Positions 2,311 to 58,900 of a stretch of DNA of 64,000 bases are shown piece after piece (positions within the stretch are counted from its first letter, which is position 1; each line of letters opens with the position of its first letter). The stretch comes from Naegleria gruberi. Taxonomy: Eukaryota. The notes beneath the pieces are model-generated. The model was not told the origin of the DNA. It saw only the letters and a program-made list of their open reading frames with translations, and did no database searches. The translations under genes were made by a program, and so were the position numbers. Where the stretch lies: assembly GCA_000004985.1 (NCBI GenBank), contig GG738854.1. One strand, 5' to 3'.

Positions 2311-2314
2311 AATG

Positions 2315-2480: not shown

Positions 2481-2504
2481 TGTTTATTAGTGATTTAAAC
2501 AATA

Positions 2505-6580: not shown

Positions 6581-6648
6581 NNNNNNNNNNNNNNNNNNNN
6601 NNNNNNNNNNNNNNNNNNNNNNNNNNNNNNNNNNNNNNNNNNNNNNNN

Positions 6649-15991: not shown

Positions 15992-16206
15992 ATGACATTG
16001 AAAAAAGTATATGGAAGCTTTAATCAAACTAAGGATATCGAAAAAACACAACAGTATTGTTTTGAATGTCAAATTGAAGCAGTGGGAGATTATGAAAAGA
16101 TATCTGAAAGCGGGATTGCAGAAGACTGGGCCATCCTCTCATTTGAAAACTATATGGAGTATGGTTCTCCAAACTATTTAATACCATCCCCATCTCAGGT
16201 ATAAAG
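15992..16206 (+). other. Possible 5' gene fragment running into the N-gap (unresolved)
   Basis: The ORF MTLKKVYGSFNQTKDIEKTQQYCFECQIEAV...SPNYLIPSPSQV is open to the gap at 16207. It has no identifiable domain and lies in the unique sequence distal to duplication copy B. Confidence 0.2.
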
Positions 16207-17601: not shown

Positions 17602-18074
17602 AACCCAAACCCAAACCCAAACCCAAGGGCAAACCCAAACCCAAACCCAAACCCAAAGCCAAACCCAAACCCAAACCCAAACCCAAACCCAAACCCAAAC
17701 CCAAACCCAAACCCAAACCCAAACCCAAACCCAAACCCAAACCCAAACCCAAACCCAAACCCAAACCCAAACCCAAACCCAAACCCAAACCCAAACCCAA
17801 ACCCAAACCCAAACCCAAACCCAAACCCAAACCCAACCCAAACCCAAACCCAAACCCAAACCCAAACCCAAACCCAAACCCAAACCCAAACCCAAACCCA
17901 AACCCAAACCCAAACCCAACCCAAACCCAAACCCAAACCCAAACCCAAACCCAAACCCAAACCCAAACCCAAACCCAAACCCAAACCCAAACCCAAACCC
18001 AAACCCAAACCCAAACCCAAACCCAAACCCAAACCCAAACCCAAACCCAACCCACCCAAACCCAACCCAAACCC
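17602..18074. repeat. Telomeric repeat tract (CCCAAA)n joined directly to coding sequence
   Basis: About 78 units of CCCAAA with sparse variants (cccaagggc, cccaaagcc, cccaaccca). It is preceded by the N-gap 16207-17601 and is followed immediately at 18075 by in-frame NHL-repeat coding sequence (t caa tta tat aat cct tat gga gtt gcc...). Confidence 0.9.
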
Positions 18075-21000
18075 TCAATTATATAATCCTTATGGAGTTG
18101 CCATCAGTTCAAGTGATGAAATTTATATTGCTGATACAAACAATCATAGAATTCGTAAAATCACAACATCTGGTATTATTTCAACAATTGCTGGAACTGG
18201 AACAGCAGGATATAATGGTGATGGTTCATCTGCAACAAGTGCTAAATTATATTTTCCTTATGGAGTTGCCATCAGTTCAAGTGATGAAATTTATATTGCT
18301 GATATGGATATGTTCAATAATAGAATTCGTAAAATCACAACATCTGGTATTATTTCAACAATTGCTGGCGGTATAGGCGATGGACTATCAGCAACTACAG
18401 CTTACATTAATGCCATTACGTTCGAATTTTCCTCAAGTGGTGAAATTTATATTGCTGATACAAACAATCATAGAATTCGTAAAATCACAACATCTGGTAT
18501 CATTTTAACAATTGCTGGAACTGGAACACAAGGATATAGTGGTGATGGTTCATCTGCAACAAGTGCTCAATTAAATTCTCCTTATGGAGTTGCCATCAGT
18601 TCAAGAGGTGAAATTTATATTGCTGATACAAACAATAACAGAATTCGTAAAATCACAACATCTGGCATTATTTCAACAATTGCTGGAACTGGAACATCAC
18701 GGCTATAGTGGTGATGGTTCATCTGCAACAAGTGCTCAATTATATAATCCTTATGGAGTTGCCATCAGTTCAAGTGATGAAATTTATGTTGCTGATTACA
18801 ATAATAACAGAATTCGTAAAATCACAACATCTGGCATTATTTCAACAATTGCTGGAACTGGAACATCCGGCTATAGTGGTGATGGTTCATCTGCAATAAG
18901 TGCTCAATTATATAATCCTTATGGAGTTGCCATCAGTTCAAGTGATGAAATTTATATTACTGATACAAACAATAACAGAATCAGAAAACTTAGTCCTTGG
19001 TGCACTGGAAATGCCATTCTTTTAGATGGATCTTGTGAGTATCCATGTTTTGGAACTACAAACAAAATTCCAGCTGTTGTATGCTCTGGAAAAGGTTCAT
19101 GTATTGGCTATAATCAATGCAATTGCACAGCTGATTACTTTGGTTACAAATGTGATGAATTTTATTGCTATGAGTTGTTGAGAAATCACTCTGGTGTTTG
19201 TTCATCCCAAGGTATTTGTACTTCTCCCAATGAGTGCTCTTGTTCATCCGGTTATTATGGGGAAAATTGCCAATACTTTTATTGCCACTCTATTCCGTTC
19301 AACTCTTCTACAGTATGTTCGTCAGTAGGAACTTGTATTGGATTGAATAATTGCTCGTGTAATCCAGGATATTCAGGGTCGTATTGCCAAGACTTTACTT
19401 GTTATGGTGTTAGTTCTAAAAACACTACCGTATGTTCTTCTCATGGCACGTGTACATCTCTAAATAATTGCTCTTGCGTTACTGGTTATTATGGAAATAA
19501 TTGCGAGAATTTTGAATGTTTCGATATTCTTTTCACTAATTCTACAGTTTGTTCTAGCAGAGGAAAATGTTTCTCTCCTAACAATTGTACATGTGATTCT
19601 GGATATTATGGATCTAATTGTGAAATGTATGATTGTTATGGATTGTCCAAAAACAGTTCTAATGTATGTTCAGGGCATGGAAGTTGTACTTCATTCAATA
19701 ATTGTACATGTAGAGATGGTTACTTTGATTCTAAATGTGAGTCATTTAATTGTGCCGGAGAGAAATTCACTGGTCAAAGTCTTTGTCAAAATAATGGAAC
19801 TTGTTCTGGCCCTGGAAATTGTGTTTGTCCATATAAGTTTGGAGGAGCAAGATGTGAATATTTTAAATGTTTTTCAGTGACAGCCAACGAACCAAAAGTA
19901 TGCGGAGGACATGGTACATGTCTCAACTATAACAATTGTTCTTGCTCAGAAAAGTGGTTTGGAGAAGATTGTTCAGTTACTAATTGTTTTAATATAACAT
20001 CAAATTCTAGTTCTGTATGTGGTGCTAGAGGAAATTGTAGTGATTATGACAGGTGTACTTGTAATAATGGTTATATTGGTAGAGAATGTGAACATATTGT
20101 TTGTTATGACAGGATTGAAAGTGATAGAATGGTTTGCTCTGGAAATGGTAAATGTATATCACCAAATAATTGTACATGTGAAAGTGGTTTTGTTGGAAAT
20201 GAATGTCAATATCATGAAATTTATTTGAACACATCATCTGCAATGATATTTTCTTTCCATGATAGTCTAATGAAAATGTTGCCAAATGGCAGTGAAATAT
20301 TTTCATGTAATGATATTTTTGAAGAATCTGAACTAATGAAATTTGGCGAAAATTCTATTTTATGTCAATGGAGAAAGAAATCAATGCAAATTTATCTTGG
20401 TTTTGATTACACAATTCAACATTACTCGGTTATTCAAACCAAATTTAATTTTTCAATGATTGTGAACAGTTTAACCAATAATGATGTTTCTTCTTCCAGT
20501 TGTACATTTGGATACTCATTAACAGAAGCATCACCAATGTTAGATTTAGTAATACGTTTGAATTGTGATGATACTTTACATGGATTCACGAAAATGACAA
20601 GTAGATGGATATGTAGTCAATGTAGTGGCGTTATTTCATCATTGTTAAACAAATATTCCAATAGAACATTTATTCATATTCCAATTTCATATACAAACAG
20701 TTTAAACCCTATTCAAGGATATAAGATTATTAATTTACAAGCTCTTTATTCATCTGGAGTGACTAGTGAAAAATCAATAAGTAAGGAAGTGAAGATACAA
20801 ACCTATACAAAATCATTACCCCCTAGTTATTACTGGTTAAGTGATAATTTTGACGGAAAGGCATATTCCTGTATTGGTCATAATTGTATTTTAGAAACTT
20901 CATTGAATAGTTTAAATTCTTCAATTTCATATTCATTTTCTGGCTTTTTCAGTTTATTGAATACTGATTTATATTCCAAACAAATGGTTAGAATGATTAA

Positions 21001-24000
21001 TGAATATTCAGGAGGAGTTTTAGACAGTGAATTTAATTCTAATATGCAAGTTTTTGGAGTTCAATTGAAAACATATGTTTTCTTACCTTTTACTATTGAC
21101 TCTTTTAAATATTCTACATTTAAAAATTTGGATTTCGTAATGACAGGTGTTAATAGAACCTATTCTATCAACTCTGATGAAACAATACGTATTGAGCTAA
21201 TGATTGATGATCCTTATATTTCCAAATATACTTTAAGTGATTATATGGAGTTTTCTTGGCAATGTTTCAAAGTTTCACCTTTCAACAAATCTCAACATTT
21301 AAGTGATAACTTGTGCTCTTCTACTAAATCTTATCTTGAACAAATAGATATTAAGCAAATAATGTCTTCAAAAGAAGGTTCTTATTATATTACTGCTTTA
21401 ATATCCTCCAATAAGTATTTTATAACAACAGTTTATCATTATGAAGGTTATATTGAGTTCTTAGATATTTCAAAGCTCTCTCCAAAAATAACTACAGATT
21501 ATATACCAGCAATTACACCTTCCCATAAGAATATTTATATGAGAAATGTAGTGAAATCTTCAACAATGGTTTCATTTATATGGAAACTCAAACAAGGATA
21601 TTTAAATAATATTGATAATAATATTGAAGAATTTCTTCAAGATAATACAATTTACAGAACTATAATGGAAAATGATATTGAAATAATTTTAAAAATTGAT
21701 AACAAACATTTAATTGAAGGAGAGGTATACGAATTTGAATTGTCAACTACCAATTCAAACGGAATTACCACTATATCCATTTCAACTAGAATTGATTATA
21801 GTCCAAGATTATCCTGTGATGTAGAAAATTTGAAACATGATGTTAATTTTACAAGTTTTGAAACTTTGATAGGTATTAACTGCTTGAAATTACCATATGA
21901 AAGTATTTCAAGTTTTGTAATGGAATTTCATTCAAACAACGAAAGATTAGGTGTAATATCCAATACACCAAAGAAATCTTTGATAACAAAGCTACCGTAC
22001 CCATATTCTAAAGATGGTAGAATTGCTCTTGTCGTAAAACTTCAAAACTTATATGGTTCTATTGGAATTTTTAGAAAAAATATTAAGATTGAATTACCTA
22101 GTTATTTGTTAAATGACAATTCTATCCTATCAAGATTTAATTATATTTCAGATCAATTCCAAATTCTTAAAAATTCTAAACCACTCAAGATGGAAATTTC
22201 CAGTGAAATGAATAGTTTACTCACCCTCTTAATTCAAAATGAAACTCTTTCAACATTATCAGACAGCATTTTGAAAGAATTTAATCCAATGAAAATAAGT
22301 TCATTTAATTCAATGCTTGGTGATATGTTGAAAATAACAAAGAGTTTATGGGATATTACTTACAAAGTTGATGAAAGAGTTATTCAATTAACTTTACCAA
22401 TAATTTACAAGATTTCTAACATTTTAAAAACAACAATTAGTGATACTTCATCATTATCAACATTTAGTATTGAATTAGAAGCTTTTTTGGAATTAATTTA
22501 TTCAGGAATGAAGAAAGCACTTAATTATTATCCAACTTTCATTTATAATGATTTACTTGATAATTATCATTTAGAAGAAATTAAATCATTGCAAAATATT
22601 CTTGCAAATATCCATCAAAATAATTTAGATGAACAATATAAGATCCATAAATTTGCTTTAGAATATTTCAAGTTAACAGGGAATAATGGCGACAATTCAA
22701 GTTTTGTCGAAGATTTAGAATATTCATCTTTATTGAATGAGAAATCAATTTCACTCACAGTTTCCAACTTTAAAGTTGATATCAAATTGCCTAGTGACTT
22801 TTCTAGTCAAATTTCTCTAACTTCCAAATCTAAACTATTCTATTCTATTAGATCATTTAATTCTCCAACTAGACAGGAAACAACACTCCTGCAAAACAAA
22901 CCAATTGTAGATCTATCTCTGTTAGATACATCATACAATACAATCACAGTGAAAAATATTAATCCACCAATAATATTCAAATTTCAAGGCTTAATTACAA
23001 ACAACAAAACTGGTATTAACACTACTTGTGTTTTTTATGATACTACCTTAAAGATATGGTCAACTAGTGGACTTGAGACCTTAACAACAATTAACAAAAG
23101 AACAGATGACTATATTTACTTTGATATGGAATGTAGATCTAATCATTTATCAGTGTTTTCCATCCAAGAAATTAATTATAACTCTCCAATTGTGCAAACA
23201 TCTGGTTTATCATCTACAAGATCCGTTTCTAGTAATGATTCTATATTAATTATCATCTTATCTACAGTGTTGCCTATTACTTTTTTGATATTTGCTTTCA
23301 GTATTATTCTAATTGTCTTTATTATACTTTTATTTAGAAGCAAGCAAAAGAAAGCAAATGAACTTGCGAAAACTAATGCTAATAATATTGAACTTGAAGG
23401 TTTTTCGAGTACTGATTTCCCGACAGAAGGAAGTATGTTTATCCAACCTCTCATGAGCATTTCTTCAAATGGAACTACTAGCGAAGCTTTCAATCCTCTC
23501 TCTAGATATTCCAACTTGATAAGAATTGGTCAAGGAGCTTTCGGATCAGTCTTTAAGGCCTTTGATAGTAAAACAAATTCGGTGAAAGCTATCAAAGTCA
23601 TTAAATATTCTTCCATGGAAGAATTGAATAATTTTATGAAAGAAGGAACTCAATTAATGAATGTCAATCATCCCTATATTTTACGGGTGAATGAATTCTT
23701 TGTTAGTAAGGACCAATTACTTTGTATTGATATGGACTTTTATGAGCTGGGAGATTTAGTTAAGTTAACAAATATTGATTTTGATTGTTCTGAAAAATTG
23801 ATCAAACAAATAATTTATCAAATGTGTCAAGCTCTTGATTATATTCACTGTACTATGAAAATAATTCATAGAGATATCAAACCATCCAATGTTTTTGTGA
23901 AAAGCTTGGAAAAAGATAATATCCACATAATTGTGGCAGATTTTGGGTTAGCTAAATCTAATATTGGATCGACAAATAATTCCTATGCTGGTACTCCTAT

Positions 24001-24348
24001 ATTTATGGTAAGTTTTTTGTACATTTAACATTTTATTCATTTGAAAAGTCCCCTGAGCTTGGTTTGGGTGGAAAGTACTATTACAACACTGATATTTATA
24101 GTTTAGGAGTTACAATCTATCAAATCATGACAAAAGATACCTTTACATCCATAAGTCAATTATACCTAGGTAAAGACCAAACAGATGTAACCAAATTATT
24201 GTATAAAAAGTTACAAGAAAGTGGTCAATATTCTTCAAAACTTGTAGAATTGGTAGTATTAATGTTAACCAAAGATAACTTGATTAGACCACAAGCTCAA
24301 GATATTTTGGAGGATTATTATTTTGATGATTTGAAAAAGAAACAATAA
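18075..24348 (+). CDS. Receptor-type Ser/Thr protein kinase: NHL repeats + about 13 tenascin-type EGF repeats + transmembrane segment + kinase. N-terminally truncated by the telomere; 2 exons
   Basis: Exon 1 is 18076-24007 and exon 2 is 24049-24348. The intron at 24008-24048 starts gtaagt, ends aaaag, and is 41 bp. Splicing joins GTPIFM to [21 protein letters not shown], which is the APE region of the kinase. Kinase motifs present are [21 protein letters not shown] and DFGLAK. The EGF repeats follow CxGxSxxxxVCSxxGxCxxxNxCxCxxGYxGxxCExF. The transmembrane segment is [32 protein letters not shown] 1-bp insertion at about 18697 (acatcacggctatag vs acatccggctatag in the other copies) shifts the frame between NHL repeats. 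This may be a sequencing error or a true disruption. Confidence 0.8.
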
Positions 24349-24455: not shown

Positions 24456-27026
24456 TTAATTTTTAATCAAAGAAAAGAAACGGGCATTTGGGGTTTGTTG
24501 AATTGCTTTCGTTACGATTTCTTGATCTTGCTTAAATGAATTCGCAGCAAAGCCAAGAGCCAATCCATTTTGTTGAACAGCTTCCATTACAACTCGCCTA
24601 TCTTTAGTTAATGATTTATCAGTGTACTCTAGTGCCAATCCATTTTGGCTCACTGCCATTATTGCTATAGCACTATCTTTCCGTAATGACCTATCTGCAT
24701 ATTCCAAAGCTAAACCATTTTGTTGAACTGCTGTTGTAACAATTTCTCTATCTTTCTTCATTTTTTCATTGGCATATTTGAGAGCCAAACCATTTTGTTG
24801 AACTGCCTTCATTACAATTTCCTTTTCGTTCTTAATTGACTTATGCATACATTCGAGTAATAAACCGTCCCGTTGAACAGTTTCAGAGGCAAATTCTCTA
24901 TCCTTTCTCAATGATTCACTCACAAAATTAATTGCCAATCTATTTTGTTGAATGGCTCTCATTACAATTTCTTTGTCTCGTCTCAGCATTTCATCTGCAT
25001 ACTTTAATGCTAAACCATTTTGTTGAATTGATTCCAATACAATTTCTCTATCTTTTCTTAATTCCTTGTCTGCAGATTCTAATGTTAGCCCATTTTGTTT
25101 AACTGCTTTCAGTACAATCTCTCTTTTTTTGACAAATGAACCATCAACAATCTGTAAAACATGTTCATTTTGTGCAACAGCATTCAACACGATTTCCTTA
25201 TCTTTTCTCAATGATTCATCTGCATATTTGATTGCAAATCTATTTTGTTTAACAGCTTCTGTGACAATTTCTATATCTTTAGTAAGTGATTTGTCTACGT
25301 ATTCTAGAGCTAACCCGTTTTGTTTCACTGATTTCAATACAATTTCTCTATCTTTCCTGAAAGAGATATCAATAGAATCAAGTAGTAATCCTTTGTGTTG
25401 TACTGCTGCCAAAACAAATTCTCTATCTTTCCTAAATGATTCATCTGCGTACGTGAATACTATTCCATCATGTTGAATTGCACTCATTACAAATTCCCTA
25501 TCTTTTCTCAATGATTCGTTGGCATATTGAAGTGCCTCTCTATTGTTTTTGAATGCAGTTAAAACTATTTCCCTGTCATTTAAGAAAGTGGTATATTTCA
25601 ATAACAACCCATTTCGTCCAACAATATCATTAATAAACTCTCTATCTCTCATTAATGATTCATCGAAGTAATTAAAGGCAGTTTCATTTCTTTCCAGTAC
25701 ATGAATGGCAAATGATTTATCTGTTCTCACTGATTCATCAATTGTTAGTAAATTTCTAACATCTTTGACCACTATTTCAACCAAGAAATTTCGGTCTTGT
25801 TTCAATGACTTGTGTGCACTCTGCAAAATATTATTTTGTAAAATGAAATCTCTATTCTTATGAGGGAGTGTTGTTAAATCTTTCATAAGGTATTCCAAAC
25901 TAGAGAAAGCTGACAACTCCTTTTCATTTTTCCAAATCAAAGACTTATTATTGAAATATATTATTCCATTAAAGCCAATATTATAAAATCCAATTGCTCT
26001 TTGTTGAATATCACTTGAAATTAATTGTTCTATCATTTCAAGAATATCTGTTGTAAACTGATCACTATCGTGATTATTGAATAAAGCTCTGAAAGTTTTA
26101 CCTAATGAAAACAAGTCAGTGTTAAATGTTGGTTTGAAATTGGCTTTGAAAATTCGTTTGCCTTTTTCATTGACTTCTAATACCTCTGGAGGAGCATAGC
26201 TTGTTGTTCCACCTCGCATTTGGGAGGCAACAGTGTCATTCAATAAGGTGAGTCCAAAATCTCCAATGGCAACCTCGACTTCATTCGAATTCAAATCAAG
26301 TTTCTTCACAAGAATATTTGCAGGCTTGATATCTGAATGAACCATACCTCTTTGTTTCATAAATAGTAATACTTCACAACATTGGAACATCATTTTGAAA
26401 ATTGCAATTGATGGAAGTTTGATTTTCTTCTTGATTAAATCTTGTAAACTTCCCATTTCAATAAATTCCATTTCAATACAACATGTCTGTCTAATCAAGA
26501 TTGAATTGTAAACCTTCACAACATTTGGATGATCCAATTTGGCTCCACTGACTGCTTCATTTGGTCCCATTGTTGAAATGATTGGTATCACTTTGATGGC
26601 TTTTACATTTTGACCATTAGAATTCCTTTTAATCACTTTTAAAACAGTTCCAAATCCCCCAGCTCCTATTTTCTCAGCATGCCATGTTTTTACTCCATCA
26701 TCAACTTGTTCATTATTCGATCCAATAATTTCTGGCAATCCATTCAGAAATTTGTTGAAATATCCCAGTACAGAATTGGTTATTCCCTGGCTGAATTTAG
26801 CATTATCATGATCATCATCAAAATCTTCGAGTAATTTAAGAAAGTATCGGAGATGAGGTTTAGTGTCGTGTTCGAATTTAATATCCGAAATTATGGATTT
26901 GTTTTGATCATGTGGATTAATGTTAGGTGAAGTATTTGCCTTTGCTTGTTTTATTGTTGGTTCGCATTCTTCTCCACCACCATTGAGGGATGTGGTGTGA
27001 TCATCTTGCTCATACTTTCTTTTCAT
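24456..27026 (-). CDS. Protein kinase with a long C-terminal array of DUF4116-like repeats of about 36 aa
   Basis: Single 856-aa ORF. N-terminal kinase motifs are GAGGFGTVLKV, VKAIKVI, HSDIKPANILV, DFGL and SYAPPE. It is followed by about 15 repeats of the form (K/R)DREIVLxAVxQNGLALEYAxxSLxKD. It converges tail-to-tail with the preceding gene, with 107 bp between the stops. Confidence 0.8.
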   Translation of the reverse strand: MKRKYEQDDHTTSLNGGGEECEPTIKQAKANTSPNINPHDQNKSIISDIKFEHDTKPHLRYFLKLLEDFDDDHDNAKFSQGITNSVLGYFNKFLNGLPEIIGSNNEQVDDGVKTWHAEKIGAGGFGTVLKVIKRNSNGQNVKAIKVIPIISTMGPNEAVSGAKLDHPNVVKVYNSILIRQTCCIEMEFIEMGSLQDLIKKKIKLPSIAIFKMMFQCCEVLLFMKQRGMVHSDIKPANILVKKLDLNSNEVEVAIGDFGLTLLNDTVASQMRGGTTSYAPPEVLEVNEKGKRIFKANFKPTFNTDLFSLGKTFRALFNNHDSDQFTTDILEMIEQLISSDIQQRAIGFYNIGFNGIIYFNNKSLIWKNEKELSAFSSLEYLMKDLTTLPHKNRDFILQNNILQSAHKSLKQDRNFLVEIVVKDVRNLLTIDESVRTDKSFAIHVLERNETAFNYFDESLMRDREFINDIVGRNGLLLKYTTFLNDREIVLTAFKNNREALQYANESLRKDREFVMSAIQHDGIVFTYADESFRKDREFVLAAVQHKGLLLDSIDISFRKDREIVLKSVKQNGLALEYVDKSLTKDIEIVTEAVKQNRFAIKYADESLRKDKEIVLNAVAQNEHVLQIVDGSFVKKREIVLKAVKQNGLTLESADKELRKDREIVLESIQQNGLALKYADEMLRRDKEIVMRAIQQNRLAINFVSESLRKDREFASETVQRDGLLLECMHKSIKNEKEIVMKAVQQNGLALKYANEKMKKDREIVTTAVQQNGLALEYADRSLRKDSAIAIMAVSQNGLALEYTDKSLTKDRRVVMEAVQQNGLALGFAANSFKQDQEIVTKAIQQTPNARFFSLIKN

Positions 27027-38056: not shown

Positions 38057-40540
38057 TTAAATATCGAGAGGAAGAGCCCTCACATCTCCAACATTTGTAA
38101 ATGCAGCATACGAGCAATCAAACGAAGAATAATAACTCGATAAGATTATAGGTATCGAATTCTCCTCCATCTTTGAAATATTCAAACATGGTTGCAAGAT
38201 TGAAATCAATCTCTCCGTTGTTATATCCTCTGGATGCCTCACTAAATAATTTTGGAAAACTCCCAATACGTGATCAATCTCCTTTTTGATTTCAGATTGT
38301 GAAATTCCATTCCAGAAATCAGCAGAAAAGACATCAAATGCCTTGTAATACTCTGCAAATGCATTGTTCTTCTTTGAATTTTCCAATTCATAAAGCCATT
38401 CATCATTGTCGGTATTCTTTTCACCAAAAACTTCATAAATTGTTTCAATACTTGAATTATTCATTTCCTTCTTAATCTTGTCAATTGGTTTCAAAATGAA
38501 TTTTCTGGCAATATCTGCTTGTAAACTTTCACAACAAGATGTATCAATTAGCACATTTACATTGAATGAATCTGCCAATATGCACAATTTTTCAGAGTCA
38601 ACCACACATGCACCAACAATCGTATAGTACCTTGAAGTTTTAGTTCCCAAGTTTCCAACCCTAGCTTTCGAACAACTGACACCAATTCTAGGGTAGAAAT
38701 CAGGTCCAACCTGATTGATAGCCTTTGCAAGTTTGAAAGCCAGCTCAACACTCTTTTCAATCAGCTTATCTTGCTCTCCTGGAGAATTAGCCGAAAGTGC
38801 CAATTGTAAAGCAAACTTTGGAAGAACTTGCAAATTAGCTTTGTATACTTTTGTAATCGGTCCAATAGCATTCATAATCTTTTTAAAACCATTCTCAATA
38901 TCACTTGGCTGTTCCATTGAGAAGAAACCCTTCAATTGACAAGTGATTACAACAGTTTGCTTGACAGATAATCCCATTTGGAATAGTGAGCCACCTCCCT
39001 TCTTGGAAGAATGAATTCTCGATTCCAAATCTGCGTGGCTAACTCCATCATTAGTTGTGCCCATGGAATGTTTCGATTCAGCAAAGGATTCATTCTTCTT
39101 GATATTGACAGATCCAAATTCCATCTCAATTGTTTGTGAGTTGATTAATTGTTCAAAAACGTGTTCTGGGATGAAAGATTTAATTTCCTTCAGCCATTGA
39201 ACAGTTGTTTTCAAATTTCCAAAAATGGAATTAATTTCCTTGAAAACTGAATTACCAATATTGACAGTGTCAAGATCAAGGACCTTAATAAGCTCAAATT
39301 GACGTTCTAAAGCTTTCATTGGTTTGGAAACTATAAATCCAATGATAAAACTGACAATGACACCAATAATCATGACAGTGACAGCCACACCAACACTAAT
39401 GCCAGTTGTCATTGTCAAGGATGCAATCACTTCTTCTTGATAAACAACGAAATAGACATTCCATTTCAAATTATCAATCTTGTAAGTGTAATGAGATATG
39501 ATATAACCTATTCCATTAACTGTTTCAGTAATTCTTTTTGGTAATTCATTCAAATCACCATATTTTACACTAATTTCTTTCATTAATTGCCCAGCATCTC
39601 TTTCTGTCAAATTATAAATATGTAAATTAGTATTTCCGTCAGGTGTCAAAGTATTAATTGACCCACCAACTAGAATTCCATTTTGCTGAGAAACCAAACA
39701 AAACCCTTTACCAATCAACACAATCTTACTCAAGAAATCAACAATATTCTGCAGTGAAATGTTTACTCTTGTCACTCCTGTCACCACTTTCTTACCTGTC
39801 TTGTACTGAACTGGATCATACAACTTTGAGGAGTGATAAATGGCCATACTTGATCCATAAGGTTTATAAGCATTGCCATAAACACCTTCAATGCCCAATT
39901 GAGTAGATAATATTATGGTCGAATTGTAATAATCTTGATCTAGGGTATAAAACGGAGTTAAATCCACAGTTGAGTTATATTTGGTTACAACTCCAGTTGT
40001 TACATTTATGGTATCACGCAAAGTTCCGATAAATCCAGGAGGTTGATAGGAATAAACTGGATAGGTTTTGTTTCCAGAACCTGCAGTAGAATAGGTGTAT
40101 TTAGTAGAAGGAGGACCAGCAAAGAAATATCCGCAACTAGAAGTTTTGAATTCTGCAAATTTGGGAAACAGATAAGTTCTAAAATTGGAAGTAGTAGCAA
40201 TTCCATTGTTGTAATCATAGGCAATGGATTTGGAGAGTTTTCCAAGGGGATCCATAAAGGTATTGAGATAGGAAGTGATTTTTTCTCCATTGACATCTAT
40301 CAAGTCATTTGACAGACCCTCAATCACTTGCTTTGTTACAGTGAATGAAGCAATCCAGATACAAAAGCAACTCATGATAAGAAGTATGGATACTACAGAA
40401 ATGATAAATAGATTAATTGGAATTCTTCCACCACACACTCGATAGAAAGTTGAAACATTTTCTTCAGGATTTTTTGAAGTGTCGTTTGACATTACTTCTT
40501 CCATGTCATCGTGGGTTACAGGGACAATTACTTGGACCAT
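38057..40540 (-). CDS. Two-TM receptor with an extracellular Cache-like sensor domain and a C-terminal class III nucleotidyl-cyclase homology domain that looks catalytically degenerate
   Basis: 827-aa ORF. TM1 is LFIISVVSILLIMSCFCIWIASF. A roughly 300-aa extracellular region is Cache-like: MAIYHSSKLYDPVQ...VTGVTRVNISLQ...GFCLVSQQNGILVG. TM2 is ISVGVAVTVMIIGVIVSFIIGFIV. The cyclase-like domain is KQTVVITCQLKGF ... RIGVSCSKARVGNLGTKTSRYYTIVGACVVDSEKL (cf. RIGIHTGxVVAGVIGxKxPRYDVWGDTVNxASRME). The metal-binding Asp residues and the GDTVN motif are replaced. The stop lies 32 bp from the stop of the preceding convergent gene. Confidence 0.55.
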   Translation of the reverse strand: MVQVIVPVTHDDMEEVMSNDTSKNPEENVSTFYRVCGGRIPINLFIISVVSILLIMSCFCIWIASFTVTKQVIEGLSNDLIDVNGEKITSYLNTFMDPLGKLSKSIAYDYNNGIATTSNFRTYLFPKFAEFKTSSCGYFFAGPPSTKYTYSTAGSGNKTYPVYSYQPPGFIGTLRDTINVTTGVVTKYNSTVDLTPFYTLDQDYYNSTIILSTQLGIEGVYGNAYKPYGSSMAIYHSSKLYDPVQYKTGKKVVTGVTRVNISLQNIVDFLSKIVLIGKGFCLVSQQNGILVGGSINTLTPDGNTNLHIYNLTERDAGQLMKEISVKYGDLNELPKRITETVNGIGYIISHYTYKIDNLKWNVYFVVYQEEVIASLTMTTGISVGVAVTVMIIGVIVSFIIGFIVSKPMKALERQFELIKVLDLDTVNIGNSVFKEINSIFGNLKTTVQWLKEIKSFIPEHVFEQLINSQTIEMEFGSVNIKKNESFAESKHSMGTTNDGVSHADLESRIHSSKKGGGSLFQMGLSVKQTVVITCQLKGFFSMEQPSDIENGFKKIMNAIGPITKVYKANLQVLPKFALQLALSANSPGEQDKLIEKSVELAFKLAKAINQVGPDFYPRIGVSCSKARVGNLGTKTSRYYTIVGACVVDSEKLCILADSFNVNVLIDTSCCESLQADIARKFILKPIDKIKKEMNNSSIETIYEVFGEKNTDNDEWLYELENSKKNNAFAEYYKAFDVFSADFWNGISQSEIKKEIDHVLGVFQNYLVRHPEDITTERLISILQPCLNISKMEENSIPIILSSYYSSFDCSYAAFTNVGDVRALPLDI

Positions 40541-52930: not shown

Positions 52931-55900
52931 ATGGTTATTGTTTCTGTTGTAGCTACTGTTATTATGATTTCAACTTCTGTAGGTTACAATCCACCAGAGC
53001 CAAAACCAGATTCATTACAGGCCTATAAGAATACTGCCTATACCATCTATCCTCTTTTGAATGATGTTGATCCAAAAGGAAACAATCTCACCCTCGTCAA
53101 CATTACCCAACCATTGTACGGAACAGCCAAATTACTCGCAGGTAATAAGGTTCAATATACCAGTCCAAAATATTACGCAGGAAATGAAACATTTTATTAT
53201 ACAGTTTATAATGGATATGGATATGCAGAGAGTTATGTTAAAATTGAAGTTTTGAATAGAGTTCCAGAAATTGTAACCATCTATAAGGATATTTCAAAGA
53301 ATAGTCAAAACAATATCATTGATGTTTTCAATTATGTTACTGAGAGTGGAGCTCAAATTAGTGATGTAGATGGTGATATTTTAACAATTGTTAGTATTAC
53401 AACACCAAATGTTGTAGGAGCTGTTGCTACCATTGTTGACTCTCAATTCATTTATTATACTCCACCAACAGGTTATAATAGTGCTGACTTTTTCAATTTT
53501 ACCATTACTGATGGAAATTCAACTGTTAGTGACACTATTTATATCAATGTTTTGAATGATGCTCCAACCAGTAATCCAGATGATTATGTCATTCCAAAGA
53601 ATAAGGTTGCCTCACTCAATTTATTGGCAAACGATTATGATGTCAATTCTGACAATATTACCATTGTTACAGCCAAGTCAGGACTTGGTTCTAAGGGTGT
53701 TGTTGTCTTTTCAGATGATGGTCTCTCTGCTGAATATTATCCATCTGCTGATACTAAGGTCTATAGTGATGCTTTCGAATATACAATCACTGATGGAGAT
53801 AAGGAGTCGGCTACATATGTTTTTGTCAGAGTCAAGAATTCCCCTCCAACCATGGAAAGCAAAACCATTACCATTCCAAAGAACTCTGAGAATAATACCA
53901 TTTCTTTAGAATATGCAGAGAGTGATATTCTCGATACTGTAACAATTACTGTTTCTAAAAAGCCAACTAGGGGAACTTTCACACTTTCACAATTGTCCAC
54001 CTCCAATAACGTTAATTATTTGAATCAACAATGGATGGTTGTAACTCAAAATACTTACACTCTTATTTATACTCCTGAAAAGAGTGTTTCCTACACTGAT
54101 AGCATTACATTCAAGATTGATGATGGCTATGACTTCACATATGCCACCTTTACTCTTAATATTGTCAATTTGCCACCTGTCACTATTAATGATACCATTG
54201 TTTGTCAAAAGAATCAACAAGTCACACTAGATGTTGTTGCCAATGATTATGACTTGAATGGAGATGTCCTCAAGTTATCTTCTTCAGCTGCAGATTGGAC
54301 CAATAGCCGTGGAGGTGCTACAGTCTCAAGAGTTGATGATGTTCAATTGAAATATGTTGCCAAGAGTGGTTTCTTGGGTGAAGATGTTGCCTCATATGTT
54401 GTAACTGATTCTGACAGCACTGCTGCATTGACTTCTACTGGTTATGTTATTGTCACAGTTGTCAATACTCCTCCTGTTGCTGTTGATGATACTATCACCG
54501 TTCCAAAAGGAGTTCTTTCCTCTTTGGATGTATTAATTAATGACAGTGATCCAAACGGAGATGCCATTGATTTCAATGCTACCAGCTTTACATCTACAAG
54601 TGGTGTTGTTTCCAGTGTCAATGTTACTAGTCCAAGAAATTTGTTGAATTATCAAGCTTTTGATGTTGTCTATCAAGATAAGATTACTTATACCATTAAG
54701 GATATTGATGGGGCTACTGCATCTGCCACTATCACCTTAAATGTTGTCAATACTGCTCCCGTTGCTAATGATGATACTATTAGTGTCAAGTGGAATACAA
54801 GCATTGTTATTCCTGTATTGGCCAATGATTATGATCAAAATCCTGCTGATAGAAGCGTTCTCACTGTCAAGACAATTAATGCTGTTTCTTTGAGTGGAGG
54901 TGTTGCTACTTCTTTCAATGGTGGTAAGAGCATCTTGTTCACTCCAACACCTGGTTTTGTTGGAAGCTTTGTTTTTACTTATACTATTACCGATTCTGAT
55001 TTAGAAAGTAATGCTGCAACTGTTACTGTCACTGTTTTTAATAGTGCTCCTGTTCCAGTCAATGATCAAGCTACTACTCACTGGCGTGATACATCAGTTA
55101 CTGTTGATGTGCTCAGTAATGATTCTGATCCAGAGGGTGATAATCTTTATATTCTCAGTGCTACTCAACCAAGTAAGGGTACTGTTTCAATTGTAACTCT
55201 CGATAATGGAAAGGATGGTATCAAATATTCCATCTCATCTTCTCAACAATTTGTCGGTGAGGAAACCATTACCTATACCGTCACTGATTATTCCATGACT
55301 GCAGTAGCTACTCTTAAAGTAACAGTTACAAATCAAGCACCAGTCGCCTTGGGAGATTATGTCAAATTGCATTGGAGTACCTCATCTATTACCATTCCAG
55401 TTTTGGCCAATGATACCGATGCCAACAATGATCCAATTACTATTGGCACAGTTACACCTCCTAATGGATTTGCTGGTACTATTACCAAGATTGATTCAAA
55501 TACCAAACTTCAATTCGTTCCAACTGCTCAATCAAAGGGTGTTCAAGTTGTAACCTATGTTGCTTCTGATGGACAAACCACAAGTGCAGGTGCAAGCTTG
55601 ACAATTGAAGTTACCAATGCTGATGCTCCTTCGGCAAGCACAATTTCTAAAACTGTTCACTGGTCCACTCAAACTACTGGTACTACCATTACATTATTCT
55701 CATCAGCTCGTGATGGAGATGGTGATTTGAATCAAATTGATTTGGCTAGCTCACCAACTGTTGCTCCATCTCACGGTACAGTTACATTGTCTAATGGGGA
55801 TTCCAATACTCTTCCAAACGTTTTGTACAAGCAAAGTACTAACTATCTTGGTTCTGATACTTTCAAGGTACAAGTTACTGATGGTGCAGATAATGCCATT

Positions 55901-58900
55901 TACACTGTCAATATGAACATTTACAACAACAAACCAACTCTCACTGCTGCCTCAACAACAGGTCATTGGTCCAAATTTGCTTCTGGTTATTCAGTTGATG
56001 CCATCTTGTTAACTTCAGCTCAAGATGCCGACTCTCAAGATACTCTTTCACTATCTTCAATTTCTCCAATGGATTTCATTACCATTAATGGAAATCAAAT
56101 CACATTCTTACCTACTGGCTCATTTGCTGGAACAAAGGTCTACACTGTTAATATTACAGATGGTATTGAAATTAGTTCTACATCTTGGACTGTCACTGTT
56201 CAAAACAACGATCCTTCTGCTGTTACAACTACTACAACAATTCACTGGTCTAAGGGATTTGAATTGATTGATGTATTATCTACCATTACAGACGCTGATT
56301 CTGATAGCATTGATTTCTCCCTTGTCAGTACTGCTGCTACAGCAAAAGGTACACCATCCATTCAAGTTTCTGGTTCCAAGAAATTAGTATTGTGGACTCT
56401 TCCATCAGTATCTGTTTCAATGTTAGGAAGTTCATCCTTCTCCATTCAATACACTGACGGATGGAAGACTAAAGAAGCCACCTACACTGTCTCAGTAACA
56501 AATTCTGCTCCAGTTGCCACAGATAAATCAACAACACTCCATTGGTCCAAATATTCAACTGGTGTTTTGATTGATGTCTTGTCAGGTGCTACTGATACCA
56601 ATTCAGAAGATAGTATTTCTTTGACCAGTTCACCATTTTCCTCTCCATCTCATGGAACAGTTTCAGTTAGTGCTGGTAAGGCACTCTATACACCAACACA
56701 AGGATATGTTGGTTCTGATTCATTCACATACTCTGTAACTGATGGTTTGGAAACTTCAACCAAAACTGTCAGTTTGACAATTACCAATCAAAAACCAGTT
56801 GCCAATTCTGACTCTGTCACTATTCACTGGAATACATCTTTTGTTGACATTAATGTATTAGGAAATGATGTAGATTCTGATGCCGAGGATACACCAATTA
56901 TCAAGACCGGCTCAGTTACTACACCAACTCAAGGAACTGCCTCAATTGTTGATGCCACTTTGGGTGTAATTAGATACACCCCATCCCAATCAGTGACAAC
57001 AGGAGCAAAGACCTTCACTTATAAAGTAACAGATGGAGCTGAAATTTCCACTAGTGCAGCAACCGTCACAGTTACTGTTACCAATGCTAATTCACCAAGT
57101 GCTTCTTCCTTGTCAAACACAATGCATTGGAGATCTGCTTTGGTAGGCACCAGCTACTCCTTATTCAATTCTGCTACTGATCCTGATGGTGATGCTCTCA
57201 AAATTAATATCCTTACTAATCCTTCTGGAACTTATTCTATTAACTCTGATGGAACTTCTGTCTTTTTCCAAACGGCTAGTGCAAGTAAGGGAGTTCAAAC
57301 ATGTACCTATACTATTTCAGATGGTTTGTCCACCTCCTCTTCTGCTACCATTACAACAACAGTCACAAACAGTATCCCAACAGCTCAAGATATCTCACTA
57401 AAATATCACTGGAGTATGATTGGAACTGGTTTAACTATTGATGCCATTTCTAAGGCAACTGATAGCGATGCTGCAGATATTGCCAACTTGAAATTGAATT
57501 CAGTTAGTCCCTCTCAAACCTATGGTAACGTTGTTTCAATGAGCCAAGATAAGACTAAGATTATCTATCAACCAACCAATTTACAAGTTGGTAATGATAC
57601 CTTCACATATTCAGTAACTGATGGATTGGACATTTCTACATCGTATACCGTTACAGTAGAAATTACCAGTACTCAAGCAGATCCATCTGATCAAATTTAT
57701 AGTGTTCATTGGAGAGCAGTACCTATTGATTTTAATGTCTTACAAAATGTTTCTAGCAGTGGAAGTGATCAACCAATTTTGGATGGAATTGATACTCCTG
57801 CATCACATGGTACAGTTGCAATTTCACAAGATCAAAAGTATGTGACCTACTCTATGGGAAGTGTCTACGTTGGAACTGACAAATTCGTTCTTAATTATCA
57901 CGTTGGTCTTAGTAATAACAAAATTACTGTAACTGTCAATATTTACAACACACAACCAACTGGTACCTCAAAGACTGTATCTACTCACTGGAGAACTCCA
58001 ATTAATATCAATTTACTTACAGGAGCCAATGATGCTGACTCTCTTGATATTCCAAATCTCTCTGTTCAACTCTCCTCAACACCTTCAAAGGGTGGCTTAT
58101 CCACAGTTTCTTCAGGTAGTGTCACTTACACACCAGAAACAAGTACAAGTGCCTTTATTGGTACCACGTCTTTCAATTTCAAAATTAATGACGGAAATTT
58201 ATTATCATCAAATGTACCTGTATCTGTCACTGTTACAAACACTGCTCCAAAGTCATCTTCAAAGAGTGTCAATGTCTTGTGGAGCGATTTTGTTTCTGGT
58301 AAGGAACTTTCTGTTCTCACATTATCTCCTGCTGATAGTGACGATAATAGTGATCCAATTAGAGTCAAATCATTCGGATCTACAAGTAAGGGAACTGTTG
58401 TAGCTAAAGGTGCATCAGGTTCTGATGCTAATATTGCCATTATTAAGGGTGTTACTGGAGAAAAATATATTGGTGCTGTCTCCTTCACCTATGTTGTGAC
58501 AGATGATGCAGCAAATGGTGATGTTACCACTACTGTCAGTGTCAATGTTTATAACAACAAACCAGTTGCAGTCTCTGATAGTGTCACAACACACTGGAAT
58601 GTCAATTATATTGATATTGATGTGTTGGCAAATGATTCTGATCCAGACTCTAATAGTTTGAGCATTGCCAGTGTTTATGGTTCATCTGCTACTACTGCTC
58701 CAATCATTACTGGTGGTAAGATTAGATATTATCCAAAGACCTCAACTGTTGGTACTGTTGATGTTTTCAAGTATGAACTCAGTGATGGAGCTCAATCAAG
58801 TGAAGGAACTGTCTCTGTCAACGTTACAAACACTAAACCAACAACTAGTTCATTCTCTCAAACCTCTGTATGGTCTGCTGTTAAGAATGGTGTATACTTC

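What the first reader, a model, noticed from the sequence alone, without database searches (positions are those of the whole stretch)
38057..40540. Cache-type receptor with a cyclase homology domain lacking the catalytic metal-binding residues
The C-terminal domain aligns to class III adenylyl/guanylyl cyclases (RIG..S...VG.LGTK.SRY....GA.V..SEKL). However it has Q/K where the two metal-binding Asp belong, and GACVV where GDTVN belongs. It is coupled to an extracellular Cache-like ligand-binding domain between two TM helices. It could be a pseudo-cyclase acting as a regulatory or dimerisation partner, or a diverged enzyme. The ligand-sensor / cyclase-like coupling is worth experimental attention.
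Basis: partly seen in the sequence, partly recalled or inferred. Interest (0 to 1): 0.6.

Follow-up and report, generated by a model that had tools for sequence, protein, structure and literature searches.

The report
Naegleria Cache receptor with dead cyclase domain
This intact Naegleria gruberi gene encodes a membrane receptor descended from bacterial Cache-HAMP adenylyl cyclases whose cyclase domain keeps its fold but has lost the catalytic residues, and many paralogues in Naegleria and its relatives show the same loss, so some of the amoeba's many "cyclases" are probably non-catalytic receptors.

Summary
ORF 38057..40540 (-) encodes an 827-aa protein identical to an NCBI "predicted protein" of Naegleria gruberi.

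Layout: TM1, a dCache-like ectodomain with six N-glycosylation sequons, TM2, a HAMP-like segment, a ~50-aa low-complexity linker, a class III cyclase homology domain (CHD), and a four-helix tail.

- **Fold:** a confident model (pLDDT 89.6) matches only class III cyclases among its top 50 PDB hits (CyaB E 5e-11). The family profile hits CyaB at 1e-11.
- **Catalytic positions:** four independent alignments agree.
- **Family-wide loss:** none of 127 related CHDs has Asp at the first metal site. Relatives occur in N. gruberi (at least 8 paralogues), N. lovaniensis, N. fowleri, Willaertia magna and metagenomes.
- **Descent:** the family aligns end to end with intact bacterial dCache_1-HAMP-cyclases (hhalign E 2.5e-39). 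It adds a variable disordered insert before the CHD and a DEW(L/M)YEL motif.

Best reading: a catalytically dead receptor pseudo-cyclase that signals by protein contacts. No CHD partner gene lies in the window. Activity is untested. I rate it a new variant of a known kind, of moderate interest.

The parts
38057..40540 (-). Whole gene: single-exon ORF of 827 codons plus stop (stop codon 38057-38059). It encodes the receptor pseudo-cyclase.
   Evidence: 100% identity to an NCBI N. gruberi predicted protein; chance probability about 3e-27
40343..40417 (-). TM helix 1 (about residues 42-66). It follows a 41-residue N-terminal cytoplasmic stretch.
   Evidence: Hydropathy peak of 2.75. It aligns to TM1 of the bacterial relatives.
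39413..40342 (-). Extracellular dCache_1-like sensor domain (about residues 67-376) with six N-x-S/T sequons.
   Evidence: Pfam dCache_1 E 0.0012, sub-threshold. 11 of 46 relatives match dCache_1, best E 4.9e-10. It is collinear by hhalign with bacterial dCache_1 proteins. Identity to the N. lovaniensis orthologue is 59%.
39332..39412 (-). TM helix 2 (about residues 377-403).
   Evidence: Hydropathy peak of 2.89; alignment.
39143..39331 (-). HAMP-like segment ending in the conserved KSFIPEHVFEQL helix (residues 404-466). It is the best-conserved part among paralogues.
   Evidence: It aligns to the Pfam-verified HAMP of P0133 and P0134. Identity to paralogues that are about 31% identical overall is 56-63%. 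Pfam HAMP itself is not detected in the query.
38984..39142 (-). Low-complexity, predicted-disordered linker (residues 467-519). It is an insertion relative to the bacterial cyclases.
   Evidence: pLDDT of 24-32 in the full-length model. It is unaligned in hhalign. The spacing from the YxP motif to the CHD is a median of 57 in the family against 9 in canonical relatives. Identity between homologues is 20-25%.
38405..38983 (-). Degenerate class III cyclase homology domain (residues 520-712). Q535 is at metal Asp-A, V572 at the substrate Lys, F576 at metal Asp-B, T640 at the substrate Asp/Thr, V647 at the transition-state Asn and K651 at the transition-state Arg. G629-N630-x-G632 and R637 are retained.
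38138..38404 (-). C-terminal four-helix tail (residues 713-801). It starts with the family hallmark D715-E-W-L-Y-E-L-E722.
   Evidence: The model shows helices at 715-738, 748-768, 773-786 and 790-801 with high pLDDT. E, W and Y are invariant in A4. The motif is found in 80 of 140 non-canonical relatives and in 0 of 11 canonical ones. The rest of the tail aligns to the tail of the bacterial relatives.

Best explanation
The gene encodes a type-II-like, two-pass plasma-membrane receptor of Naegleria gruberi. It descends, domain for domain, from bacterial dCache_1-HAMP-class III adenylyl cyclases. Its cyclase homology domain is catalytically dead, so it is a pseudo-cyclase.

It belongs to a family expanded in Naegleria and Willaertia. 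Every sampled member has lost the first metal-binding Asp and the substrate Lys. Most have also lost the transition-state Asn and Arg.

**Proposed working**
1. An extracellular small-molecule ligand binds the double-Cache ectodomain (inferred).
2. The signal crosses the membrane through TM2 into the strongly conserved HAMP-like bundle (inferred).
3. Nothing is cyclised. Instead the signal changes the association, orientation or accessibility of the CHD-fold dimer and its helical tail with the DEWLYELE motif.
4. That module is tethered by a flexible Ser/Lys/Asn-rich linker and acts as a docking or dimerisation platform for cytosolic partners (inferred).

**Shown:** the domain architecture, the fold, the end-to-end homology to bacterial cyclases, the absence of the catalytic residues, the family-wide nature of the loss, the linker insertion and the conserved tail motif.

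**Inferred:** the lack of activity, the membrane orientation, ligand binding and the non-catalytic output.

**Confidence:** about 0.85 that the CHD is catalytically dead, and about 0.4 for the specific scaffold or docking output. The single figure given is a compromise between the two.
For: **Fold**
- The model of residues 505-827 has pLDDT 89.6.
- All top 50 Foldseek PDB matches are class III cyclases: CyaB E 5e-11 with TM-score 0.77 on the target length, then Cya2, CyaC, sGC and mammalian AC.

**Sequence homology**
- Family profiles hit solved cyclases at E 4e-9 and 1e-11.
- The hhalign comparison with 11 bacterial dCache_1-HAMP-cyclases gives probability 100%, E 2.5e-39 and 646 aligned columns, from TM1 to the tail.
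- Those bacterial proteins carry Pfam dCache_1, HAMP and Guanylate_cyc above threshold and have the canonical FFSDIxxFT / KYIGDA / GDxVNxASRLE motifs.

**Catalytic positions in the query**
- They are Q535, V572, F576, V647 and K651.

**Family-wide pattern over 127 degenerate CHDs**
- Asp-A position: D 0 of 127 (K 26, R 23, T 13, N 10, Q 7, E 7).
- Substrate Lys position: not among the eight commonest residues (I, V, S, gap, T, L, H, G).
- Transition-state Asn position: N 14.
- Transition-state Arg position: R 8, K 20.

**The gene is under selection, not decaying**
- The 827-codon ORF is intact.
- Orthologues are 46-49% identical, with the ectodomain at 59% and the HAMP-like segment at 56-63%.
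- At least 8 N. gruberi paralogues exist, plus many in N. lovaniensis, N. fowleri and Willaertia.

**The CHD-plus-tail unit looks like a reusable output module**
- The same module is fused to EGF-rich ectodomains and to N-terminal ankyrin repeats in other members.
- The DEW(L/M)YEL motif occurs in 80 of 140 relatives and in 0 of 11 canonical cyclases.

**Rigid coupling is broken**
- The spacing from HAMP to CHD is fixed at 9-12 residues in canonical relatives. In the family it is 0-112 residues with a median of 57.
Against: - No enzyme assay exists. Class III cyclases with unusual residues can retain some activity (for example M. tuberculosis Rv0386 with Gln/Asn at the substrate positions; my own knowledge).
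- Many paralogues, though not this protein, keep an Asp or Glu at the second metal site (53 of 127).
- The family keeps the GNxG hairpin and a basic residue (R/K637) one position from the canonical phosphate-binding Arg. Nucleotide binding is therefore not excluded.
- The non-catalytic output is purely inferential. No partner is known, and gene neighbourhood is uninformative in a eukaryote.
- The dCache and HAMP assignments for the query itself are below Pfam thresholds. The full-length model is of low confidence (pLDDT 51.7).
- Only a monomer was modelled, so dimerisation is assumed from the family.
Confidence: 0.6

Rival explanations
1. It is a regulatory heterodimer partner. The dead CHD pairs with a catalytically intact CHD protein; Naegleria is reported to have at least 81 cyclases. 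It would then tune or silence that partner in response to the Cache ligand, in the way degenerate sites work in mammalian C1/C2 cyclases or sGC alpha/beta.
For: - The dimerisation arm (the beta4-beta5 hairpin with G629-N-x-G632) is among the most conserved parts of the domain.
- Class III cyclases are obligate dimers (established knowledge).
- A pangenome paper counts at least 81 cyclases in Naegleria (PMC9928731).
Against: - In a head-to-tail CHD dimer, each site needs the metal Asp pair from one chain and Lys, Asp/Thr, Asn and Arg from the other. This protein lacks both sets: Q535 and F576, and V572, V647 and K651. Both sites of any heterodimer would be defective, so it could only inhibit.
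- No CHD gene is adjacent.
- The disordered linker argues against precise allosteric coupling.
- No partner has been identified.
Confidence: 0.2
2. It is a nucleotide-binding, non-turnover sensor. The degenerate pocket still binds ATP, GTP or a cyclic nucleotide as an allosteric ligand, so the protein integrates an extracellular cue with intracellular nucleotide status.
For: - A basic residue (R 77, K 42 of 127) is conserved one position from the canonical phosphate-binding Arg.
- Thr or Ser is common at the substrate Asp/Thr position (T 32, S 33).
- D or E is retained at the second metal site in 53 of 127 relatives.
Against: - This particular protein has F576 at the second metal site and V572 at the base-recognising Lys.
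- The pocket residues are not conserved as a set across the family.
- No binding data exist.
Confidence: 0.12
3. It is a diverged but still active cyclase, or another nucleotidyl-transferase, that uses a non-canonical constellation of catalytic residues.
For: - The fold is fully preserved.
- Automatic annotation calls the N. lovaniensis relatives 'Guanylate cyclase domain-containing protein'.
- Some atypical CHDs are active (my own knowledge).
Against: - Two-metal catalysis in class III cyclases needs both Asp residues. The first is absent in 127 of 127 relatives and is most often replaced by Lys or Arg.
- In this protein the second is Phe.
- No alternative acidic pair is conserved. The transition-state Asn and Arg are also lost.
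Confidence: 0.06
4. It is a decaying gene copy or an annotation artefact with no function.
For: - N. gruberi annotates it only as 'predicted protein'.
- The CHD evolves faster (29-39% identity) than the sensor and HAMP parts.
Against: - The 827-codon ORF is intact in a 34% G+C genome (chance about 3e-27).
- Orthologues and paralogues are conserved across Naegleria species and Willaertia, with invariant motifs.
- The model of the CHD and tail is confident.
Confidence: 0.02

Closest known systems
Bacterial dCache_1-HAMP-class III adenylyl cyclases, for example the Pseudomonadota MAG protein MES2252549.1 (P0166, a member of the P0144 cluster). M. tuberculosis Rv2435c has a dCache_1 sensor on a cyclase according to PMC4822843.
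   Same: The architecture is collinear from TM1 through the dCache ectodomain, TM2, HAMP, CHD and C-terminal helical tail. The hhalign comparison gives probability 100%, E 2.5e-39 and 646 aligned columns. The GNxG hairpin, the RPxD strand and the tail F..A...W pattern are shared.
   Different: - The bacterial proteins have the full catalytic set: FFSDI, KYIGD and GDxVNxASRLE.
- They have a fixed 9-12-residue spacing from HAMP to CHD.
- The Naegleria protein has Q535, V572, F576, V647 and K651, a ~50-aa disordered insert and the DEWLYELE motif.
- It is eukaryotic, with N-glycosylation sequons in the ectodomain.
N. gruberi dCache_1 + Guanylate_cyc proteins already on record (D2VLR9_NAEGR and D2V3A4_NAEGR). 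Upadhyay et al. 2016 describe one as a 'bacterial-type adenylate cyclase' acquired by horizontal transfer.
   Same: Same organism and the same Cache-plus-cyclase-domain architecture. In D2V3A4 the dCache is at residues 68-372, against 67-376 here (PMC4822843).
   Different: - That paper reports a single such protein in its text, and its supplement lists two. It does not address the catalytic residues.
- This protein is below the Pfam thresholds for both domains, so it was not counted.
- I could not retrieve those two sequences to check their catalytic residues.
Degenerate halves of pseudo-heterodimeric class III cyclases: mammalian AC C1/C2, sGC alpha/beta and the sAC C2 domain.
   Same: These are CHD-fold domains that have lost part of the catalytic set yet are retained for dimerisation or regulation. 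The sAC C2 domain is one of the best PDB sequence hits (E 4e-9).
   Different: Each of those halves keeps the complementary half of one active site. This protein lacks both halves, so it cannot complete an active site with any partner.
Receptor-type cyclases of protists: trypanosome ESAG4/GRESAG4 adenylyl cyclases and Dictyostelium ACG.
   Same: They share the idea of an extracellular ligand-binding domain coupled through the membrane to a cytosolic CHD in a free-living or parasitic protist (my own knowledge; ACG and the trypanosome cyclases are mentioned in PMC9928731).
   Different: Those are catalytically active and use other ectodomains (periplasmic-binding-protein-like or CHASE-like; my own knowledge). 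They did not appear among the sequence hits here.
Pseudo-enzyme modules in receptors, for example the kinase-homology domain of natriuretic peptide receptor guanylyl cyclases.
   Same: This is a conceptual analogy only. A catalytic fold is retained as a regulatory or scaffolding module after the catalytic residues are lost (my own knowledge).
   Different: The fold and position are different. There the cyclase domain is the active output; here the cyclase fold itself is the dead module.

Membership tests
Class III nucleotidyl cyclase (catalytically competent CHD, Pfam PF00211) | CHD fold (beta-alpha-beta-beta-alpha-beta core with the beta4-beta5 dimerisation arm) | tested here: met
   The model has pLDDT 89.6. 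The top 50 Foldseek PDB hits are all class III cyclases; the best is E 5e-11 with TM-score 0.77 on the target length.
Class III nucleotidyl cyclase (catalytically competent CHD, Pfam PF00211) | Scores above the Pfam Guanylate_cyc gathering threshold (21.9 bits) | tested here: not met
   The query gives no hit at E<=1. Close homologues score 18.0 and 16.4 bits. 18 of 46 relatives match at E<=0.01. Homology is established only by profiles.
Class III nucleotidyl cyclase (catalytically competent CHD, Pfam PF00211) | Two metal-binding Asp residues (end of beta1; beta2-beta3 turn) | tested here: not met
   Q535 and F576. Across the family, site A is D in 0 of 127 CHDs.
Class III nucleotidyl cyclase (catalytically competent CHD, Pfam PF00211) | Transition-state Asn and Arg on helix alpha4 (GDxVN..SR) | tested here: not met
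   V647 and K651, with GD replaced by G643-A644.
Class III nucleotidyl cyclase (catalytically competent CHD, Pfam PF00211) | Base-specifying pair (Lys + Asp/Thr for ATP; Glu + Cys for GTP) | tested here: not met
   V572 is at the Lys/Glu position. T640 is at the Asp/Thr position, so Thr is retained.
Class III nucleotidyl cyclase (catalytically competent CHD, Pfam PF00211) | Phosphate-binding Arg in the beta4-beta5 hairpin | tested here: inconclusive
   The canonical Arg aligns to S636. The family-conserved R637 (R 77, K 42 of 127) is one residue later, in a loop.
Class III nucleotidyl cyclase (catalytically competent CHD, Pfam PF00211) | Formation of cAMP or cGMP; dimeric active site | not testable with these tools
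   This needs an enzyme assay and a multimer structure. Only a monomer was modelled.
dCache_1 extracellular sensor domain (Pfam PF02743) | Scores above the Pfam gathering threshold (45 bits) | tested here: not met
   18.9 bits, E 0.0012, residues 234-360.
dCache_1 extracellular sensor domain (Pfam PF02743) | Homology to bona fide dCache_1 domains | tested here: met
   - 11 of 46 relatives match dCache_1, best E 4.9e-10.
- The ectodomain aligns collinearly by hhalign with bacterial proteins scoring 50-76 bits on dCache_1.
- PDB hits to chemoreceptor dCache domains are only marginal: 6mni E 0.031.
dCache_1 extracellular sensor domain (Pfam PF02743) | Located between two TM helices, outside the cell | tested here: met
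   TM helices at about 42-66 and 377-403, with six N-x-S/T sequons between them. The orientation itself is inferred.
dCache_1 extracellular sensor domain (Pfam PF02743) | Double PDC fold with a ligand pocket in the membrane-distal module | tested here: inconclusive
   - The full-length model has low confidence in this region (pLDDT 30-70).
- The bacterial DPRxRPWY motif aligns to LDQDYY in the query, so the Arg and Trp are replaced. The ligand is unknown.
HAMP domain (Pfam PF00672) | Pfam match, or alignment to a verified HAMP directly after TM2 | tested here: inconclusive
   There is no Pfam HAMP hit in the query or in 46 relatives. However, residues 404-455 align to the Pfam-detected HAMP of P0133 (368-418) and P0134 (383-434). 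The model shows helix, connector, helix.
Bacterial-type dCache-HAMP-CHD receptor cyclase (architecture class) | Collinear TM-dCache-TM-HAMP-CHD-tail architecture | tested here: met
   hhalign gives probability 100%, E 2.5e-39 and 646 aligned columns.
Bacterial-type dCache-HAMP-CHD receptor cyclase (architecture class) | Short, fixed-length helical connection between HAMP and CHD | tested here: not met
   The spacing is 9-12 residues in 11 canonical relatives. It is 57 in the query, and 0-112 with a median of 57 in 112 family members. The insert is low-complexity with low pLDDT.
Bacterial-type dCache-HAMP-CHD receptor cyclase (architecture class) | Intact catalytic residues | tested here: not met
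   See the rows above.

The most novel reading that the evidence does not exclude
The pseudo-CHD plus the DEWLYELE tail is a new, non-catalytic receptor output module. Naegleria and its relatives evolved it from a horizontally acquired bacterial cyclase, then multiplied it and recombined it with different input domains (dCache, EGF-rich, ankyrin). These amoebae would then have a family of chemoreceptors that signal without making cyclic nucleotides. A substantial share of the celebrated 80-100+ 'cyclases' of Naegleria would be pseudo-enzymes.
Probability: 0.4. Interest if true: 0.6.

Novelty: new variant of a known kind. Interest (0 to 1): 0.45.

Why it matters
- **Cyclase counts.** Genome papers stress that Naegleria has an unusually large cyclase repertoire: at least 81 in the pangenome study, PMC9928731. 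That repertoire is read as evidence of rich cAMP/cGMP-based environmental sensing. If a whole expanded sub-family of Cache-coupled 'cyclases' cannot make cyclic nucleotides, the counts overstate second-messenger capacity.
- **A different signalling route.** The finding points to ligand-regulated pseudo-enzyme scaffolds in a deep-branching eukaryote whose genus includes the pathogen N. fowleri.
- **Evolution of pseudo-enzymes.** It is a clean case: horizontal acquisition of a bacterial sensor enzyme, early loss of catalysis, insertion of a disordered tether, gain of a new conserved motif, then gene-family expansion and domain shuffling.
- **Limits.** Degenerate cyclase domains are known in principle, nothing here is biochemically tested, and the output mechanism is speculative. 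The interest is therefore moderate.

Tried and rejected
- **Single-sequence searches** found no cyclase. Pfam at E<=1 and a phmmer search of PDB sequences were both negative, so the homology had to be shown with profiles and structure.
The exhaustive representative search gave the family instead.
- **The afdb50 fold library** was unavailable.
- **Genomic distance to a paralogue.** The look-up of encoding contigs had no record for the query or for P0007. The distance to this paralogue on the same 665-kb scaffold could not be determined.
- **Partner CHD in the window.**
  - Pfam on most ORFs of at least 200 aa found no cyclase domain.
  - A tblastn of 151 family and canonical proteins found no cyclase-domain match outside this gene.
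  - I did not scan ORFs that overlap assembly gaps or larger ORFs.
- **Pseudogene or chance ORF:** rejected.
- **'K at the second metal site':** rejected in favour of F576.
- **Literature searches** for a description of Naegleria pseudo-cyclases found none in the held library.


Full report
**1. What is at the coordinates**

The interval 38057..40540 is exactly one minus-strand ORF of 827 codons, ATG to stop. Its product is 100% identical over its full length to an NCBI "predicted protein [Naegleria gruberi]". The window is therefore eukaryotic, about 34% G+C with three assembly gaps, and the gene model has a single exon. At this base composition an 827-codon open frame has a chance probability of about 3e-27.

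The closest relatives are an N. lovaniensis protein (46% identity, 98% coverage) and two metagenomic proteins (49% and 40%).

**2. Domain layout**

| Residues | Feature | Evidence |
|---|---|---|
| ~42-66 | TM helix 1 | Hydropathy |
| 67-376 | dCache-like ectodomain, six N-x-S/T sequons | |
| ~377-403 | TM helix 2 | Hydropathy |
| 404-466 | HAMP-like segment | |
| 467-519 | Low-complexity linker | |
| 520-712 | Degenerate cyclase homology domain (CHD) | |
| 713-801 | Four-helix tail | |

- **Ectodomain.** Pfam gives only a sub-threshold dCache_1 match for the query (E 0.0012, 18.9 bits against a cutoff of 45; residues 234-360).
  - 11 of 46 relatives match dCache_1, best E 4.9e-10.
  - The protein is collinear with bacterial proteins that score 50-76 bits on dCache_1.
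- **HAMP-like segment.** After TM2, residues 404-455 align to the Pfam-detected HAMP domains of the bacterial relatives P0133 and P0134. The following KSFIPEHVFEQL aligns to their "KYVPxELVxxLI". Pfam HAMP itself does not fire on the query or its relatives, so I call this HAMP-like.

**3. Is the C-terminal domain a cyclase homology domain?**

Yes, but the single sequence does not show it. Pfam Guanylate_cyc gives nothing at E<=1, and phmmer against PDB sequences gives nothing. The evidence comes from profiles and structure.

- A 6-sequence profile hits Cya2 (2w01) at 3.4e-5 and soluble AC.
- A 34-sequence profile hits the sAC C2 domain at 4e-9.
- A 30-sequence profile of the domain hits CyaB (3r5g) at 1e-11 over almost the whole domain.
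- An AlphaFold model of residues 505-827, built with a 46-sequence alignment, is confident (pLDDT 89.6, pTM 0.87).
- Foldseek with that model against the PDB returns only class III cyclases in the top 50. These include CyaB (E 5e-11, TM-score 0.77 on the target length), Cya2, CyaC, photoactivated ACs, sGC and mammalian AC.

**4. Catalytic positions**

Four alignments agree: to Cya2, to 11 canonical bacterial relatives inside one HMM alignment, to CyaB, and profile-profile to the bacterial group. The model's secondary structure also fits: beta1 ends at Q535, the beta2-beta3 turn is P574-K575-F576, and alpha4 spans 644-658.

| Canonical role | Residue in this protein |
|---|---|
| Metal Asp-A (FFSD) | Q535 |
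| Substrate Lys (KYIGD) | V572 |
| Metal Asp-B (IGD) | F576 |
| Phosphate Arg | S636, with the conserved R637 one residue later |
| Substrate Asp/Thr | T640 |
| Asp of GD | A644 |
| Transition-state Asn | V647 |
| Transition-state Arg | K651 |

The "K" at the second metal site is off by one; it is F576.

**5. This is a family, not a one-off**

An exhaustive HMMER search of 1.84 billion representatives finds 651 proteins at E<=1e-3, 142 at E<=1e-10 and 59 at E<=1e-30.

*Where the family occurs (30 representatives looked up)*
- N. gruberi: at least 8 paralogues below 50% mutual identity, all annotated "predicted protein". One, P0007, lies on the same 665-kb scaffold.
- N. lovaniensis: at least 10, auto-named "Guanylate cyclase domain-containing protein".
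- N. fowleri, Willaertia magna, one euglenid (Peranema) and unnamed metagenomic contigs.

*Residues at the catalytic positions in 127 non-canonical CHDs*

| Position | Residue counts |
|---|---|
| Asp-A | D 0; K 26, R 23, T 13, N 10, Q 7, E 7 |
| Substrate Lys | Lys not among the eight commonest residues (I, V, S, gap, T, L, H, G) |
| Asp-B | D 36, E 17 |
| Transition-state Asn | N 14 |
| Transition-state Arg | R 8, K 20 |

- The 11 canonical bacterial sequences in the same alignment carry the standard motifs: Asp-A in all 11, Arg in all 11, Asn in 10.
- No alternative catalytic constellation is conserved.
- What is conserved is structural: the G629-N-x-G632 hairpin, R/K637, G643 and the RPxD strand.
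- The family also has a hallmark at the start of the tail, D-E-W-(L/M)-Y-E-L. It is invariant in E, W and Y in alignment A4. It is present in 80 of 140 non-canonical hits and in 0 of 11 canonical ones.

**6. Origin**

hhalign of the Naegleria group against 11 bacterial dCache_1-HAMP-Guanylate_cyc proteins gives probability 100%, E 2.5e-39 and 646 aligned columns. The alignment runs from TM1 to the C-terminal helical tail. The whole protein, tail included, derives from that bacterial architecture.

This fits Upadhyay et al. 2016, who describe a Cache-containing "bacterial-type adenylate cyclase" in Naegleria and attribute eukaryotic Cache domains to horizontal transfer (PMC4822843). Their supplement lists D2VLR9_NAEGR and D2V3A4_NAEGR, not this protein. 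They do not discuss catalytic residues.

**7. A second departure: the linker**

The only long unaligned stretch in the hhalign comparison is residues 467-520.

- In the 11 canonical relatives, the distance from the (Y/F)xP motif at the end of HAMP to the start of the CHD is 9-12 residues. In 112 family members it ranges from 0 to 112 with a median of 57; the query has 57.
- The insert is low-complexity and has pLDDT 24-32.
- It is the least conserved part, at 20-25% identity.
- By contrast, the HAMP-like segment is the best-conserved part even between distant paralogues (56-63%). The ectodomain is 59% identical to the orthologue, and the CHD only 29-39%.

**8. Mechanism**

*Shown:* architecture, fold, descent, loss of the catalytic residues across the family, the tether insertion and the tail motif.

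*Inferred:*
- The CHD does not cyclise nucleotides. Two-metal catalysis needs both Asp residues, and here both are missing, together with the Lys, Asn and Arg.
- The gene is under purifying selection and belongs to an expanded family.
- The pseudo-CHD plus tail also occurs behind other input modules: an EGF-rich ectodomain in N. gruberi P0060, and N-terminal ankyrin repeats in several metagenomic members.
- I therefore read the pseudo-CHD plus tail as a non-catalytic output module. It would be a ligand-regulated dimer or scaffold that docks cytosolic partners.

*Rivals:*
- **Heterodimer with an intact cyclase.** This protein lacks both halves of an active site, so such a dimer could only be inhibitory.
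- **Nucleotide binding without turnover.**
- **Residual non-canonical activity.**
- **Decay.**

**9. Partner gene**

- No other cyclase domain was found in the window. Pfam on most ORFs of at least 200 aa found none. I did not scan ORFs that overlap assembly gaps or larger ORFs. A tblastn of 151 family and canonical proteins matched no cyclase domain outside this gene.
- The neighbours are a MORN-VPS9 protein, a low-complexity protein, a BTB protein, a LanC-like protein, a TLDc protein and two kinases. This is uninformative in a eukaryote.
- The genome as a whole is reported to hold at least 81 cyclases (PMC9928731).

**10. Novelty and verdict**

- The domain combination in Naegleria is on record. 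Automated annotation already flags the relatives as cyclase-domain proteins.
- I found no description of the family-wide catalytic loss, the tether insert or the DEWLYELE tail in the searchable literature.
- This is a new variant of a known kind: a receptor-type class III cyclase turned pseudo-enzyme.
- Interest is moderate. It would rise if biochemistry confirmed a non-catalytic signalling role, or if a census showed that a large share of Naegleria "cyclases" are dead.

Noticed in passing
window 52931..63403 (+): A single 3490-aa ORF has about 20 bacterial Ig (Big_9) repeats, 16-17 bacterial cadherin-like repeats and a VWA domain. It looks like a giant bacterial-type adhesin inside a Naegleria scaffold. 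G+C there is 0.37-0.39, against 0.31-0.34 in the preceding 46-54 kb. It could be another horizontally acquired gene.
   Followed up: no
window 1477..2541 (-) and 14045..15109 (-): Two 354-aa ORFs 12.5 kb apart are 100% identical at the protein level and have no Pfam match. They are probably copies of a repeated or mobile element, and they flank assembly gaps.
   Followed up: partly
window 6581-6648, 7765-11217, 16207-17601: These are runs of N, that is, assembly gaps. The long ORFs listed across them (for example 7601..11287 and 16029..18065) are artefacts of the N runs.
   Followed up: no
window 18584..24028 (+) and 5548..7134 (+): ORF 18584..24028 is a receptor-kinase-like protein with NHL repeats, teneurin-type EGF repeats and a C-terminal protein kinase domain that is cut at the ORF end, so an intron is likely. 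ORF 5548..7134, upstream, is a second NHL-repeat ORF. The EGF region of 18584..24028 is 32% identical to the ectodomain of N. gruberi P0060, which carries the same pseudo-cyclase module. This suggests ectodomain shuffling between receptor families.
   Followed up: partly
window 24456..27026 (-): A protein kinase is fused to 10 copies of DUF4116. This is an unusual repeat-kinase architecture and was not examined further.
   Followed up: no
proteins P0039, P0070, P0074, P0075, P0085 (metagenomic contigs, not in the window): These are distant family members with long N-terminal ankyrin-repeat regions in front of the dCache/pseudo-CHD part. JGI names the two that were looked up (P0039, P0074) 'ankyrin repeat protein/class 3 adenylate cyclase'. 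Their organisms are unknown.
   Followed up: partly
query residues ~199-206 (window ~39925-39948, minus strand): The DPRxRPWY motif conserved in the dCache_1 domains of the bacterial relatives aligns to LDQDYY in the Naegleria protein. From my own knowledge, this motif contributes ligand-contacting residues in amino-acid-sensing dCache domains, so the ligand here is probably different.
   Followed up: partly
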